Assembly: GCF_003334355.1 (NCBI RefSeq)
Contig: NZ_QOWP01000001.1
DNA from: Escherichia coli
Lineage (GTDB): Bacteria > Pseudomonadota > Gammaproteobacteria > Enterobacterales > Enterobacteriaceae
Strand: one strand, 5' to 3'
Length of the DNA stretch: 64,000 bases
The notes beneath the pieces were generated by a model. The model ran no database searches. It was given only the letters and a program-made list of their open reading frames with translations, and was not told the DNA's origin. Numbering within the stretch: the stretch's first letter is position 1; each line of letters begins with the position of its first letter. The position numbers were made by a program, and so were the translations under genes. This document shows, piece after piece, positions 53,142 to 57,067 of this stretch.

Positions 53142-55118
53142 TTACTCATCTTCAAGATAAGTATAACCGTACAAACCTGCCTCGAACTCTTCAAGGAACT
53201 GTTGTTGCAGTTCAGCATCAAGATCGGTTTTCTTCACTTGATCGCGGAACTGGGTTAACAGCGTTTTCGGATCGAGCTGTACATATTGCAGCATGTCCGC
53301 CACGGTATCGCCTTCGTCAGACAGTTCTACTTCTACGCTACCGTCAGGGAAGACGAACACGTCAACCGCTTCGGTATCACCGAACAGGTTGTGCATGTTG
53401 CCGAGGATCTCCTGATATGCGCCGACCATAAAGAAACCGAGCATCGGCGGATTCTCTGGATCGTACTCCGGCATTGGCATTGTCGTGGCAATACCGTCAC
53501 CATCAATATAGTGGTCGATAGCACCGTCAGAGTCACAGGTAATATCCAGCAGCACAGCGCGACGTTCCGGCACTTGATCCAGCCCTTCCAGCGGCAGAAC
53601 CGGGAACAACTGGTCGATCCCCCATGCGTCCGGCATCGACTGGAACAGCGAGAAGTTGACGTACATTTTGTCCGCCATACGTTCCTGCAGCTCGTCGATA
53701 ATCGGACGATGAGCACGGTTTTGCGGATCCAGCTGCTTTTGCACTTCATGGCACATGCTCAAATAAAGCTGCTCAGCCCATGCACGTTCTTGCAGGCTAA
53801 AGGTGCCGGAAGAGTAGCCGATATGAATGTCGTGCAGATCCATCTGACTGTCGTGTAACCATTCACGCAGAGAACGGCGAGTTCCCGGTTCGTGCATCTC
53901 CTGCCAGGTTTCCCACATGCTTTGCAGCGCGCGCGGCGCATCTTCTGCAGGCGCGGTCGGCACCGTGTATTCGTTACGTTCCACGCCGATGATATTAGAC
54001 ACCAGCACGGTGTGATGCGCAGTCACCGCACGACCCGATTCGGTGATTACCGTCGGATGCGGCAGACCGTTTTCTTCACACGCATCACCAATCGCCCAGA
54101 TGATGTTGTTGGCATATTCATTGAGGCCGTAGTTTACGGAGCAGTCAGACTGCGAACGGGTGCCTTCATAGTCCACGCCCAGACCGCCGCCGACGTCGAA
54201 GCACTGAATATTGACGCCCAGCTTGTGCAGTTCCACATAGAAACGCGCCGATTCACGAACGCCTGTGGCGATATCGCGAATATTCGCCATCTGCGAACCG
54301 AGGTGGAAGTGCAGTAGTTGCAGGCTGTCGAGACGCCCGGCTTCACGCAGGGTTTCAACCAGTTGCAGTACCTGAGTCGCAGCCAGGCCGAACTTCGATT
54401 TTTCCCCGCCGGAGGACTGCCATTTACCCGAGCCCTGCGAAGCCAGACGTGCACGCACGCCCAGACGAGGAACGACATTCAGACGTTCTGCTTCATCCAG
54501 CACAATGGCGATTTCTGACATCTTCTCAATGACCAGGTAGACCTTGTGGCCCATCTTCTCGCCAATTAATGCCAGGCGGATATATTCGCGGTCTTTATAA
54601 CCGTTGCAGACGATGACGCTACGGGTCATGCCAGCATGTGCCAGCACCGCCATCAACTCTGCTTTCGAGCCTGCTTCCAGTCCCAGCGGTTCGCCCGAAT
54701 GAATCAGGGACTCAATCACGCGGCGGTGCTGGTTAACTTTGATCGGATAAACAAGGAAGTAATCGCCGTTATAGCCGTAGGATTCCCGCGCACGTTTGAA
54801 CGCGGCGTTAATGGAACGCAAACGGTGCTGCAGGATCTGTGGGAAACAGAACAGTGCAGGCAGACGCTGACCCTGTGCTTCACGAGTTTTCACTAACTGC
54901 GCGAGATCGACGCGAGCTTCCGGGACGTCCGGGTCCGGGCACACGCTGATGTGGCCCAGCTCGTTAACGTCATAGTAGTTATTGCCCCACCAGGCAATAT
55001 TGTAAGTACGCAGCATCTTGCTGGCTTCCTGGGAGCTCATTGCAACCTCCTGCATGGAGCGTAGTACACCGTGTTCGCCCGCTGACGAAGGCAAACCCAT
55101 AGACATGTCGTCAGACAT
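53142..55118 (-). CDS. speA: Biosynthetic arginine decarboxylase (PLP-dependent)
   Basis: 658 aa from [45 protein letters not shown]. Confidence 0.95.
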
Positions 55119-55126
55119 AGCGAACC

Positions 55127-55258
55127 TCAAATTATTTTATTAAGTGTAAAACAGTTAACGACTATCGCAGCCTGGAACTGCGATAACAACCCATAAGCAC
55201 ATGGATTTTCCAGCAGTGTATGCTGACGCTCCGACTGCGCAACCGGTTTCTTTTTCAT
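55127..55258 (-). CDS. yqgB: Small protein YqgB (43 aa) immediately upstream of speA
   Basis: Hand translation of the minus strand: ATG AAA AAG AAA CCG GTT GCG CAG TCG GAG CGT CAG CAT ACA CTG CTG GAA AAT CCA TGT GCT TAT GGG TTG TTA TCG CAG TTC CAG GCT GCG ATA GTC GTT AAC TGT TTT ACA CTT AAT AAA ATA ATT TGA; the stop lies 9 nt before the speA ATG. Confidence 0.7.
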
Positions 55259-55393
55259 AACATTATTAAGCACATAACCGAACGTAAGTGTGACAGTTCG
55301 GCGAAACCACGAGAAAACTCTTGTTTTTACAAGAGCGCCCTTGTTCAGTCCTCAGTAACTGTAACCAGCTCTTGAATCCTGAGAAGCGCCGAG

Positions 55394-55609
55394 ATGGGTA
55401 TAACATCGGCAGGTATGCAAAGCAGAGATGCAGAGTGCGGGGAACGAATCTTCACCAGAACGGTGAGACAGGTTAAGCAGCAGACAACGGTTCATTATTT
55501 CGTATCACCTCCACGGCCGCCTGTTAAGACGAACCCACAAGCCAAAACTCTGATTTCAACCCGGCTGGAAGTGGCAACACGAAAAAAACGTCGTGTGCTT
55601 TTTATTTAA
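55394..55609 (+). CDS. yqgC: Hypothetical small ORF (71 aa; yqgC position in K-12 annotation)
   Basis: ORF-track entry only; no recognisable domain; lies in the speA-metK regulatory intergenic region. Confidence 0.3.
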
Positions 55610-55872
55610 GCCGCGCGCCGCGTTTTATACCCCACAATGGCAGAAAATTGCAAAAGATAAATACGCAGAATGCCGGCATTGTCAGGAAAAATTTCCAGCC
55701 ACGTTTTTAACAGAATGAGACACGATTCAAAAAAAAGTGGAAATCGGGTGAAGAATTGACCTAAAATAGCCATCCAGATGTTAATCCATCCATACCGATT
55801 AACACTCAGACTGCCAGTGTTTTTAACCTGCAGAGTCGTGGTAGGATCCGCTACCACAGAAAATCCACACAA
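55606..55872 (-). CDS. yqgD: Hypothetical small ORF (yqgD position in K-12 annotation)
   Basis: ORF-track entry with a non-ATG start; no recognisable domain; overlaps the metK promoter region. Confidence 0.25.
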
Positions 55873-55912
55873 CAGTTTGAGCTAACCAAATTCTCTTTAG
55901 GTGATATTAAAT

Positions 55913-57067
55913 ATGGCAAAACACCTTTTTACGTCCGAGTCCGTCTCTGAAGGGCATCCTGACAAAATTGCTGACCAAATCTCTGATGCCGTTTTAGACG
56001 CGATCCTCGAACAGGATCCGAAAGCACGCGTTGCTTGCGAAACCTACGTAAAAACCGGCATGGTTTTAGTTGGCGGCGAAATCACCACTAGCGCCTGGGT
56101 AGACATCGAAGAGATCACCCGTAACACCGTTCGCGAAATTGGCTATGTACATTCCGACATGGGCTTTGACGCTAACTCCTGTGCGGTTCTGAGTGCTATC
56201 GGCAAACAGTCTCCTGACATCAACCAGGGCGTTGACCGTGCCGATCCGCTGGAACAGGGCGCGGGTGACCAGGGTCTGATGTTTGGCTACGCAACTAATG
56301 AAACCGACGTGCTGATGCCAGCACCTATCACCTATGCACACCGTCTGGTACAGCGTCAGGCTGAAGTGCGTAAAAACGGTACTCTGCCGTGGCTGCGCCC
56401 GGACGCGAAAAGCCAGGTGACTTTCCAGTATGACGACGGCAAAATCGTTGGTATTGATGCTGTCGTGCTTTCCACTCAGCACTCTGAAGAGATCGACCAG
56501 AAATCGCTGCAAGAAGCGGTAATGGAAGAGATCATCAAGCCGATTCTGCCCGCTGAATGGCTGACTTCTGCCACCAAATTCTTCATCAACCCGACCGGTC
56601 GTTTTGTTATCGGTGGCCCGATGGGTGACTGCGGTCTGACTGGTCGTAAAATTATCGTTGATACCTACGGCGGCATGGCACGTCACGGTGGCGGAGCATT
56701 CTCTGGTAAAGATCCATCAAAAGTGGACCGTTCCGCAGCCTACGCAGCACGTTATGTCGCGAAAAACATCGTTGCTGCTGGCCTGGCCGATCGTTGTGAA
56801 ATTCAGGTTTCCTACGCAATCGGCGTGGCTGAACCGACCTCCATCATGGTAGAAACTTTCGGTACTGAGAAAGTGCCTTCTGAACAACTGACTCTGCTGG
56901 TACGTGAGTTCTTCGACCTGCGCCCATACGGTCTGATTCAGATGCTGGATCTGCTGCACCCGATCTACAAAGAAACCGCAGCATACGGTCACTTTGGTCG
57001 TGAACATTTCCCGTGGGAAAAAACCGACAAAGCGCAGCTGCTGCGCGATGCTGCCGGTCTGAAGTAA
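55913..57067 (+). CDS. metK: S-adenosylmethionine synthetase
   Basis: 384 aa from [32 protein letters not shown]; SD taggtgatattaaat before the ATG. Confidence 0.97.

What the first reader, a model, noticed from the sequence alone, without database searches (positions are those of the whole stretch)
55127..55258. 43-aa ORF yqgB abutting the speA start codon
A short ORF ([43 protein letters not shown]) ends 9 nt before the speA ATG on the same strand. Its position suggests translational coupling or a leader-peptide role in polyamine-responsive control of speA, in addition to any function of the peptide itself.
Basis: partly seen in the sequence, partly recalled or inferred. Interest (0 to 1): 0.35.

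Follow-up and report, generated by a model that had tools for sequence, protein, structure and literature searches.

The report
yqgB: leader ORF coupled to speA
The 43-codon ORF is the known E. coli gene yqgB, and comparison across 78 related species suggests that translating it right up to the masked speA start codon matters more than the peptide it encodes.

Summary
The ORF is real. Its UGA sits inside the speA Shine-Dalgarno sequence, 8 nt (not 9) before the speA AUG. It is the annotated E. coli gene yqgB (NCBIfam NF033844).

Across 78 Enterobacteriaceae species:
- The ORF is always open. There are no in-frame stops, against 203 and 279 in the other two frames.
- It always ends within 8 nt of the speA AUG, despite frame switches and insertions of 51-128 nt.
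- pN/pS is 0.83, no better than the out-of-frame controls (0.91 and 0.75). For speA it is 0.047.

The speA AUG lies in an invariant hairpin of -21 kcal/mol that a ribosome finishing yqgB must melt. Synonymous variation in speA codons 2-23 is the lowest in the gene.

Published work reports a yqgG-yqgB-speAB transcript, Rho-dependent termination in the leader, initiation at the yqgB AUG in vitro, and lower speA/speB expression after yqgB deletion in Salmonella.

Best reading: yqgB is a cis-acting, translationally coupled leader ORF. A uORF role was already proposed in print, so this is not new. Polyamine responsiveness was not tested here.

The parts
55127..55258 (-). yqgB ORF: 43 codons plus UGA. 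The AUG has no Shine-Dalgarno sequence and lies in an AU-rich, unpaired stretch.
   Evidence: sequence and translation. (RefSeq annotation). (NF033844, 91.4 bits). (no SD-like 4-mer upstream in 78/78 species; 32% GC). (unpaired probability above 0.9 around the AUG). (INRI-seq detects the start in vitro).
55125..55129 (-). yqgB stop UGA (55129..55127) overlapping the speA Shine-Dalgarno GAGG (55128..55125)
   Evidence: Read directly. UGA at -11..-9 is present in 78/78 species.
55116..55118 (-). Annotated speA start codon (the primary initiation site, giving SpeA-74)
   Evidence: annotation. (Ribo-RET peak at the primary site, Meydan et al.).
55073..55125 (-). Predicted hairpin that sequesters the speA AUG: GUUCGCU.UG.CUGACGA paired with UCGUCAG.CR.GGCGAAC. 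Its 19-nt loop varies between species.
   Evidence: -21 kcal/mol on its own; 16 pairs, 12 never vary, 3 vary on one side only and stay compatible, 99.1% of cells paired; synonymous sites in the stems are invariant, while the bulge and loop sites vary.
55143..55148 (-). UACACU in yqgB codons 37-39, the 5' strand of a long-range helix that encloses the speA initiation region
   Evidence: 6 pairs, invariant in 64 sequences. In genera with insertions the motif is re-created next to speA.
55065..55070 (-). GGUGUA in speA codons 17-18, the 3' strand of that long-range helix
   Evidence: G17 and V18 show zero synonymous variation.
55162..55186 (-). Hairpin inside yqgB: UUAUCGC / GCGAUAG, with an invariant stem and a variable 11-nt loop
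55038..55051 (-). Internal speA start: SD AGGAGG (55051..55046) and the AUG of Met27 (55040..55038), giving SpeA-70
   Evidence: Sequence. Q23 and E24 synonymous sites are invariant. Already published.
55061..55061 (-). Published Rho-dependent RNA 3' end, 57 nt into speA (MG1655 coordinate 3085854), just 3' of the predicted structure
   Evidence: Adams et al. supplementary tables, Rho score 3.09, flagged 'uORF'. The coordinate mapping is mine: window + 3030793.
55119..55616 (-). The speA leader, about 498 nt, from the transcription start used by Adams et al. to the base before the speA AUG. It is conserved across the family.
   Evidence: cloning primer. (conservation profile). (helices with covariation). 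(no Rfam match). (a yqgG-yqgB-speAB transcript is considered likely).
55352..55495 (-). yqgG, a second conserved upstream ORF (47 codons) in the same leader
   Evidence: annotation. (SPA-tag validated, Weaver et al.). (conservation; pN/pS 0.62 against 0.91 and 0.97).
55317..55336 (-). Terminator-like hairpin between yqgG and yqgB
   Evidence: Covariation at the pair 360/371: UA 23, CG 12.

Best explanation
yqgB is the last module of a conserved leader of about 500 nt on the yqgG-yqgB-speAB mRNA, and it acts mainly in cis. Ribosomes start at its exposed AUG, which has no Shine-Dalgarno sequence, and translate to a UGA embedded in the speA Shine-Dalgarno sequence. In about a quarter of species they instead end at a UGA overlapping speA codons 2-3. 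The speA primary start codon is otherwise locked in a stable hairpin, itself enclosed by a helix between yqgB codons 37-39 and speA codons 17-18. A ribosome reaching the yqgB stop must unwind both helices. This frees the AUG 8 nt downstream for re-initiation or fresh initiation, which is translational coupling by unmasking. The same translation keeps Rho off the leader and early speA RNA, so that without it transcription ends prematurely. The peptide sequence itself seems to matter little. What is shown: the anatomy, its conservation, the lack of frame-specific selection, and (from the literature) co-transcription, Rho dependence and the effect of deletion. What is inferred: that speA translation depends on yqgB translation, and what signal, if any, is sensed.
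For: 1. The ORF is open in 78/78 species and always ends within 8 nt of the speA AUG. The stop lies 8 nt upstream in 58 species and ends 8 nt past the A of the AUG in 20. It is never fused to the speA frame, although there are 11 different lengths between codon 31 and the SD.
2. Insertions of 51-128 nt in several genera leave the frame open and re-create UACACUU next to speA.
3. In-frame stops number 0, against 279 and 203 in the other frames. Column shuffling expects 7.4, and 0 of 2000 shuffles gave none.
4. pN/pS is 0.83 in frame against 0.91 and 0.75 out of frame; speA gives 0.047. The conserved 'peptide' blocks coincide with predicted helices.
5. The speA start hairpin folds at -21 kcal/mol, while the yqgB AUG is more than 0.9 unpaired.
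6. Stems are invariant and loops variable. One-sided changes keep pairing, including a non-synonymous GAA to GGA change.
7. Synonymous diversity in speA codons 2-23 is 0.22 of expectation, the lowest window in the gene.
8. From the literature: Rho-dependent termination within the speA 5' UTR and a 3' end at +57 flagged 'uORF'; a probable yqgG-yqgB-speAB transcript; the yqgB start detected by INRI-seq; and a Salmonella yqgB deletion that lowers speA/speB mRNA and arginine decarboxylase, with no complementation mentioned.
Against: No experiment separates cis from trans effects. The key hairpins never vary, so there is no covariation for them; their support is conservation, thermodynamics and the synonymous-site pattern only. 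The fold z-scores are modest (-2.0 and -2.4). Ribo-RET and INRI-seq detect initiation at the speA primary start even though retapamulin blocks elongation on yqgB, so that start can be reached without coupling. The yqgB start was not detected in vivo. A few codons (A7, H13, V21, V33, V34, N35, L39) vary only at the wobble position, which hints at some amino-acid constraint. The absence of fusions to the speA frame could reflect selection against a fusion protein rather than selection for coupling. The shuffle test ignores phylogenetic relatedness.
Confidence: 0.55

Rival explanations
1. YqgB is primarily a trans-acting small protein (an 'acid stress response protein'). Its position next to speA is ordinary operon packing.
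For: It is annotated as such and matches NF033844. Adams et al. list it among experimentally validated small proteins. Deletion phenotypes are reported in acid and colistin, and drug binding to YqgB is claimed. A few codons vary only at the wobble position.
Against: pN/pS in frame is no lower than out of frame. The C-terminal residues are variable, and insertions of 17-48 codons are tolerated. The conserved blocks coincide with RNA helices. The deletion phenotypes run through speA/speB and polyamines and were not complemented in trans in the paper I could read. Overexpression triggers an aggregation-type heat-shock response.
Confidence: 0.13
2. yqgB encodes a metabolite-sensing arrest peptide, like SpeFL, MdtU or TnaC. 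A ribosome stalled at or near its stop, in response to polyamine, agmatine or arginine, blocks or exposes the speA start and modulates Rho access.
For: Other polyamine genes use such uORFs together with Rho. The most conserved block, [10 protein letters not shown], lies 4-13 residues from the stop, and the stop lies inside the speA SD. There is a Rho-dependent 3' end just downstream.
Against: There is no frame-specific amino-acid selection. In several genera 17-48 codons separate the block from the stop. In a screen for arrest peptides, YqgB overexpression gave a heat-shock signature, not the cold-shock-like arrest signature. No ligand dependence is known.
Confidence: 0.1
3. yqgB is an inhibitory uORF. 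Ribosomes terminating on the UGA inside the SD occlude the primary speA start. This lowers SpeA-74 and shifts initiation to the internal Met27 start (SpeA-70).
For: The stop overlaps the SD. speA has a second start with its own strong SD. Both starts are detected independently of yqgB elongation.
Against: Deleting yqgB lowered speA mRNA and enzyme in Salmonella rather than raising them. The -21 kcal/mol hairpin argues that the primary start needs help, not blocking.
Confidence: 0.1
4. The ORF is incidental. Only the RNA structure of the leader is functional, and yqgB translation is irrelevant.
For: Conservation is at the nucleotide level, with no overall codon periodicity (p1/p2/p3 entropy 0.52/0.63/0.60). 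pN/pS is near the out-of-frame values. The yqgB start was not seen in vivo by Ribo-RET.
Against: There are zero in-frame stops in 78 species, across variable codons and insertions, where 7.4 are expected. The AUG is invariant and the stop is anchored. Initiation is seen in vitro and the protein was tagged.
Confidence: 0.05

Closest known systems
speFL-speF (ornithine-sensing leader ORF of the inducible ornithine decarboxylase; orf34 in Salmonella)
   Same: A short ORF in the long leader of a polyamine-biosynthesis decarboxylase gene in Enterobacteriaceae, with Rho-dependent premature termination and mRNA structure involved (for the Salmonella work; the SpeFL arrest mechanism is from my own knowledge).
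   Different: SpeFL works through a sequence-specific nascent peptide that binds ornithine and stalls the ribosome. yqgB shows no amino-acid-level selection, gave no arrest signature, and ends inside the downstream SD rather than upstream of a Rho-loading region.
mdtU-mdtJI (spermidine-responsive uORF of the spermidine exporter)
   Same: An experimentally detected small ORF upstream of a polyamine gene with a Rho-dependent 3' end just downstream. It is named in the same paper, and by the same criterion, as yqgB-speA.
   Different: mdtU regulation was demonstrated and is suggested to depend on the MdtU C-terminus. For yqgB nothing has been tested, and its C-terminus is the most variable part.
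Classical translational coupling by unmasking or termination-reinitiation (MS2 coat-replicase, trpE-trpD, atpH-atpA, secM-secA; from my own knowledge)
   Same: The upstream stop lies within a few nucleotides of the downstream start. The downstream initiation region is base-paired, and the upstream ribosome must melt it.
   Different: Those are usually pairs of genuine protein genes, or an arrest-dependent case (secM). Here the upstream cistron appears to exist only to be translated. Dependence of speA on it has not been measured.
Eukaryotic polyamine-pathway uORFs (AdoMetDC 'MAGDIS', plant ADC uORF; from my own knowledge)
   Same: A short ORF immediately upstream of a polyamine-biosynthesis gene, proposed to set its translation.
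   Different: A different translation system (scanning), with peptide-sequence-dependent, polyamine-stabilised stalling at termination. There is no evidence for either feature here.

Membership tests
YqgB small-protein family (NCBIfam NF033844 / Pfam PF11036) | Sequence match above the curated cut-off | tested here: met
   91.4 bits against a cut-off of 35. PF11036 is precomputed on all homologues.
YqgB small-protein family (NCBIfam NF033844 / Pfam PF11036) | Located immediately upstream of speA on the same strand, in Enterobacteriaceae | tested here: met
   78/78 species loci. Named profile hits come almost only from Enterobacteriaceae genera; the one exception is an assembly labelled Vagococcus.
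Translationally coupled upstream ORF (unmasking / termination-reinitiation) | Upstream stop within a few nucleotides of the downstream start, on one transcript | tested here: met
   The stop lies 8 nt before the AUG, or ends 8 nt past its A, in 78/78 species. A yqgG-yqgB-speAB transcript is inferred from published northern blots.
Translationally coupled upstream ORF (unmasking / termination-reinitiation) | Downstream initiation region sequestered in a structure that the upstream ribosome must open | tested here: inconclusive
   The predicted hairpin (-21 kcal/mol) and the enclosing helix are invariant in 64 sequences, with variable loops and frozen synonymous sites. There is no covariation, because the pairs never vary. 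No probing data.
Translationally coupled upstream ORF (unmasking / termination-reinitiation) | Downstream translation depends on upstream translation | not testable with these tools
   Needs start-codon and nonsense mutants with reporters. The only related data are the deletion effects in Salmonella.
Metabolite-sensing ribosome-arrest leader peptides (SpeFL, MdtU, TnaC, SecM) | Amino-acid-level conservation of the arrest motif | tested here: not met
   pN/pS is 0.83 in frame against 0.91 and 0.75 out of frame. Only a few codons vary at the wobble position alone.
Metabolite-sensing ribosome-arrest leader peptides (SpeFL, MdtU, TnaC, SecM) | Fixed spacing between the motif and the stall or stop site | tested here: not met
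   Insertions of 17-48 codons lie between the conserved block and the stop in several genera.
Metabolite-sensing ribosome-arrest leader peptides (SpeFL, MdtU, TnaC, SecM) | Demonstrated ribosome arrest | not testable with these tools
   A published overexpression screen grouped YqgB with aggregation/heat-shock inducers, not with arrest-like responders. Ligand-dependent arrest has not been examined.
Rho-dependent leader attenuators governed by a uORF | Rho-dependent termination within or just after the leader | not testable with these tools
   Met according to the literature only. A 5' UTR-only lacZ fusion was tested in rhoR66S; speA is not among the fusions for which the paper says the effect was eliminated, and the discussion cites reporter and northern data as supporting Rho termination of speA. 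The 3' end at +57 has a Rho score of 3.1.
Rho-dependent leader attenuators governed by a uORF | Termination depends on uORF translation | not tested
   No data found.
Any Rfam RNA family | Covariance-model match | tested here: not met
   No match up to E = 1 in 54900..55950 on either strand.

The most novel reading that the evidence does not exclude
yqgB could act as a switch between the two SpeA isoforms. Normal termination at the UGA inside the SD would feed the primary start (SpeA-74). Read-through of that UGA would carry the ribosome across and past the primary start to the next in-frame stop. Polyamines are known, from my own knowledge, to stimulate such read-through in E. coli. In 69 of 78 species that next stop is a UGA overlapping the internal Met27 start (AUGA), which would favour SpeA-70. 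Polyamine level would then set both the amount and the isoform of arginine decarboxylase through stop-codon choice on a peptide-indifferent uORF.
Probability: 0.08. Interest if true: 0.7.

Novelty: already known. Interest (0 to 1): 0.35.

Why it matters
speA catalyses the first step of the arginine route to putrescine, and how its expression is controlled after transcription starts has never been worked out. If yqgB is a cis-acting coupling ORF, several things follow. The acid and colistin phenotypes attributed to a 'YqgB protein', and its proposed use as a drug target, may really be effects on speA/speB expression. The name 'acid stress response protein' would then be misleading. The conserved, structured leader of about 500 nt, with two uORFs, would join speFL-speF and mdtU-mdtJI as a third uORF-plus-Rho control region in enterobacterial polyamine metabolism. 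The test is simple: a start-codon mutant, a nonsense mutant, trans complementation and hairpin mutants.

Tried and rejected
- Rfam scan of the region at E up to 1 found nothing.
- Simple promoter/terminator scan gave only a terminator-like hairpin between yqgG and yqgB. No published 3' end at that site turned up in my term searches of the Adams et al. supplementary tables. Covariation shows it is part of a longer stem.
- Overall codon periodicity in yqgB is absent, so I could not use it as proof of coding. I used ORF maintenance instead.
- Covariation for the hairpin at the speA start cannot be assessed, because the pairs never vary.
- I tried to reach beyond Enterobacteriaceae with a SpeA N-terminal protein search. 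It returned mostly gene fragments. Three looked-up contigs came from genomes with a broken speA. One keeps a yqgB-like ORF with an in-frame stop. One has the N-terminal extension but no recognisable yqgB. One, at 74% SpeA identity, has neither. The taxonomy of these contigs was not given.
- A conserved 2- or 6-codon mini-ORF ending in AUGA on the yqgB start looked attractive, but its AUG is missing in several species, so I dropped it.
- Hobbs et al. 2010, the source of the 'acid stress' name, is not held in the library. I could not check whether a polar effect on speA was considered there.
- The first attempts at several shared searches failed for lack of capacity and were repeated.

Full report
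**Observation.** The window is E. coli. The 1-kb stretch around the finding matches all 5426 complete E. coli genomes, 5414 of them at 99% identity or more. The annotated speA ATG is at 55118..55116 on the same strand. The gap between the stop and the ATG is 8 nt (GGTTCGCT), not 9. The UGA itself overlaps the speA Shine-Dalgarno sequence (UGAGG). RefSeq annotates, in order, speB, speA, yqgB ('acid stress response protein YqgB'), yqgG and yqgD, with metK divergent. The peptide matches NCBIfam NF033844 at 91.4 bits, against a cut-off of 35. The observation therefore stands, with two corrections: the strand and the gap length.

**What the literature already says.**
- Adams et al. 2021 cloned the speA 5' UTR from a transcription start that maps to about window 55616, giving a leader of about 498 nt.
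- They tested a 5' UTR-only lacZ fusion in the rhoR66S mutant. speA is not among the fusions for which they report that the effect was eliminated. Their discussion says the reporter and northern data support Rho termination of speA.
- They also mapped a Rho-dependent 3' end 57 nt into speA (window 55061), flagged 'uORF', and named yqgB-speA as a candidate uORF pair.
- Weaver et al. validated yqgG by tagging and found no expression of the antisense ORF yqgC.
- INRI-seq detected initiation at the yqgB AUG in vitro. In-vivo Ribo-RET did not detect it.
- Meydan et al. showed that speA has two starts: the annotated one (SpeA-74) and an internal one 26 residues downstream (SpeA-70). Later work confirmed this.
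- A 2025 screen for arrest peptides found that YqgB overexpression induces heat-shock proteins typical of aggregation, not the arrest-like response.
- A 2026 paper reports that deleting yqgB in Salmonella lowers speA and speB mRNA, arginine decarboxylase and spermidine. The words 'complement' and 'polar' do not occur in its text.
- Hobbs et al. 2010, the source of the 'acid stress' name, is not held in the library.

**Comparative anatomy.** I fetched the speA 5' region from 80 species representatives of Enterobacteriaceae; 78 of them have upstream DNA.
- A yqgB-like ORF is present in all 78.
- Its stop is the UGA inside the SD in 58 species.
- In the other 20, a shift of -1 or +2 nt in the variable 3' tail moves the frame. 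The ORF then ends ...EVRYV* at a UGA overlapping speA codons 2-3, 8 nt past the A of the AUG.
- Both UGAs are present in all 78 species, so either frame terminates on the speA initiation region.
- The third frame, which would fuse YqgB to SpeA, is never used, although the distance from codon 31 to the SD takes 11 different values. The only fusion I saw is one draft Klebsiella assembly that has an extra A in an A-run.
- Several genera carry insertions of 51-128 nt inside TTTTACAC|TT. In every case the frame stays open across the insertion, and TACACTT is re-created next to speA.
- Across all species there are no in-frame stops, against 279 and 203 in the other two frames.
- Shuffling alignment columns predicts 7.4 in-frame stops in 47 distinct sequences, and none of 2000 shuffles gave zero. 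This test ignores relatedness between species.
- A profile search found named homologues in Enterobacteriaceae genera, apart from one assembly labelled Vagococcus, which I take to be mislabelled. Their lengths, from 43 to 104 residues, match these classes.

**Peptide or act of translation?** The conserved blocks are M[KN]KKPVA[QR], VYGLLS and [10 protein letters not shown]. They are conserved at all three codon positions, and the variable codons also vary at all three. Mean entropy per codon position is 0.52, 0.63 and 0.60. Pairwise pN/pS is 0.83 in the annotated frame, against 0.91 and 0.75 in the two other frames of the same DNA; for speA it is 0.047. The frame is therefore kept open and its end anchored, but the amino-acid sequence is not detectably under selection. 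A few codons (A7, H13, V21, V33, V34, N35, L39) vary only at the wobble position, so a minor peptide constraint cannot be excluded.

**RNA structure.**
- RNAalifold on 64 distinct sequences places every conserved 'peptide' block in a helix.
- One helix inside yqgB shows real covariation: the pair 33/70 is AU in 43 sequences and GC in 15.
- The UUAUCGC/GCGAUAG hairpin has an invariant stem and a variable loop.
- UACACU (yqgB codons 37-39) pairs with GGUGUA (speA codons 17-18).
- Inside that long-range helix, GUUCGCU.UG.CUGACGA pairs with UCGUCAG.CR.GGCGAAC, burying the speA AUG.
- That hairpin alone folds at -21 kcal/mol, and -25.8 kcal/mol with the outer helix.
- By contrast, the yqgB AUG region is more than 0.9 unpaired. 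It has no SD-like 4-mer upstream in 78/78 species and is 32% GC.
- Most pairs never vary, so covariation cannot support the start hairpin.
- Its support comes instead from stems that are invariant next to variable loops. One-sided changes also keep pairing, including a non-synonymous GAA to GGA change.
- Independent support comes from synonymous sites. Diversity in speA codons 2-23 is 0.22 of the gene-wide expectation, the lowest window in the gene. The one freely varying site, A13, sits where A or G both pair with the U of the AUG.
- The published 3' end at 55061 lies just 3' of this structure. That fits exonucleolytic trimming back to a stable stem. This last point is my inference.

**Mechanism.** When the yqgB stop is in the ribosomal A site, the mRNA channel covers roughly the next 12-15 nt. 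That is the SD, the spacer and the 5' arm of the hairpin. The ribosome has already passed UACACU. Both helices must therefore be open at the moment of termination, with the speA AUG 8 nt away. This is the classical geometry of translational coupling by unmasking or re-initiation. Together with the published Rho dependence, it predicts that loss of yqgB translation lowers both SpeA-74 synthesis and full-length speAB mRNA. The Salmonella deletion data agree with this prediction. I put this reading at 0.55.

Three points count against it. The speA primary start is detected by retapamulin-based methods in which yqgB cannot be elongated. The yqgB start was not seen in vivo. No cis/trans test exists.

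**Rivals.**
- A trans-acting small protein (0.13).
- A ligand-sensing arrest peptide (0.10). This is weakened by the absence of amino-acid selection, by insertions between the motif and the stop, and by the screen result.
- An inhibitory uORF that favours the internal start (0.10). This is contradicted by the direction of the deletion effect.
- An incidental ORF (0.05). This is contradicted by the maintenance of the open frame.

**Context.** The whole leader, from about -530 to -1, is far more conserved than ordinary intergenic DNA. It contains several helices with clear covariation. It also holds a second conserved uORF, yqgG, whose C-terminal half shows some frame-specific constraint. No Rfam family matches the region.

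**Verdict.** The ORF is a known, annotated gene, and a uORF role has already been proposed in print, so the finding is not novel. The new contribution here is comparative evidence on three points: selection acts on translation reaching the speA start rather than on the peptide; the speA start is masked by an invariant structure; and the conserved 'peptide' blocks coincide with RNA helices. This makes the published 'acid stress protein / drug target' interpretation doubtful, and it sets up a simple experimental test.

Noticed in passing
window 55352..55495 (-), and L002-L081 at about -377..-236 relative to the speA ATG: yqgG, the second ORF in the speA leader, is open in nearly all 78 species (44-51 aa). 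Its C-terminal motif [17 protein letters not shown] is almost invariant. pN/pS is 0.62 in frame against 0.91 and 0.97 out of frame, and 0.48 in the C-terminal half. Unlike YqgB, its peptide may be under selection, so it is a candidate sensor peptide.
   Followed up: partly
window 55119..55616 (-): The whole speA leader of about 498 nt is conserved at the nucleotide level across Enterobacteriaceae. Several of its helices are supported by compensatory changes, for example 20 double changes at one pair before the yqgG SD and UA/CG covariation in the terminator-like hairpin at 55336..55317. No Rfam family matches it.
   Followed up: partly
window 55038..55051 (-): A perfect AGGAGG lies 5 nt upstream of the in-frame Met27 of speA, with invariant synonymous sites at Q23 and E24. 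This turned out to be the published internal start that gives SpeA-70 (Meydan et al. 2019; INRI-seq; TRAINSPOTTER).
   Followed up: yes
window 55037..55129 (-); P0158: If the yqgB UGA is read through, the next stop in that frame is a UGA overlapping the internal Met27 start (AUGA) in 69 of 78 species. One Enterobacter roggenkampii protein record (73 aa) is the product expected if the first UGA is lost and translation runs on to that second stop; I inferred this from the peptide and did not check the DNA.
   Followed up: partly
L029, L032, L036, L050, L055, L077, L078, L046, L065, L074 (inside yqgB, after codon 37): GC-rich insertions of 51-128 nt sit inside TTTTACAC|TT. A TACAC-like repeat flanks each one, which resembles the footprint of a small mobile element. 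All of them leave the yqgB frame open.
   Followed up: partly
window 55577..55596 (+): A terminator-like hairpin followed by a T-run lies on the plus strand, at the end of the old yqgC ORF (55394..55609 +). The same palindrome forms the first hairpin of the speA leader on the minus strand. Weaver et al. reported yqgC as not expressed.
   Followed up: no
window 55502 (-): Adams et al. list a second RNA 3' end (MG1655 coordinate 3086295) about 115 nt into the leader, just 5' of the yqgG AUG. Its origin, whether processing or termination, is not explained.
   Followed up: no
P0005, P0007, P0014 (E. coli / Shigella YqgB variants): Single-genome variants look like compensated frameshifts: several consecutive residues are scrambled and then the frame is restored. 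This would fit selection on the frame rather than on the peptide, but they could also be sequencing errors.
   Followed up: no
P0029 (Klebsiella pneumoniae IS43): This is annotated as one protein carrying both the YqgB and the decarboxylase Pfam domains. From the protein sequence, a +1 change in the A-run before the UGA would account for fusing yqgB to speA in frame. It is the only example seen of the otherwise avoided third frame, and it is probably an assembly error.
   Followed up: partly
window 55255..55275 (-): Short ORFs (AUG-NUA-UGA, or six codons MCLIML* in E. coli) end in an AUGA overlap with the yqgB start in most species. Their AUG is missing in several species, so conservation is incomplete.
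   Followed up: partly
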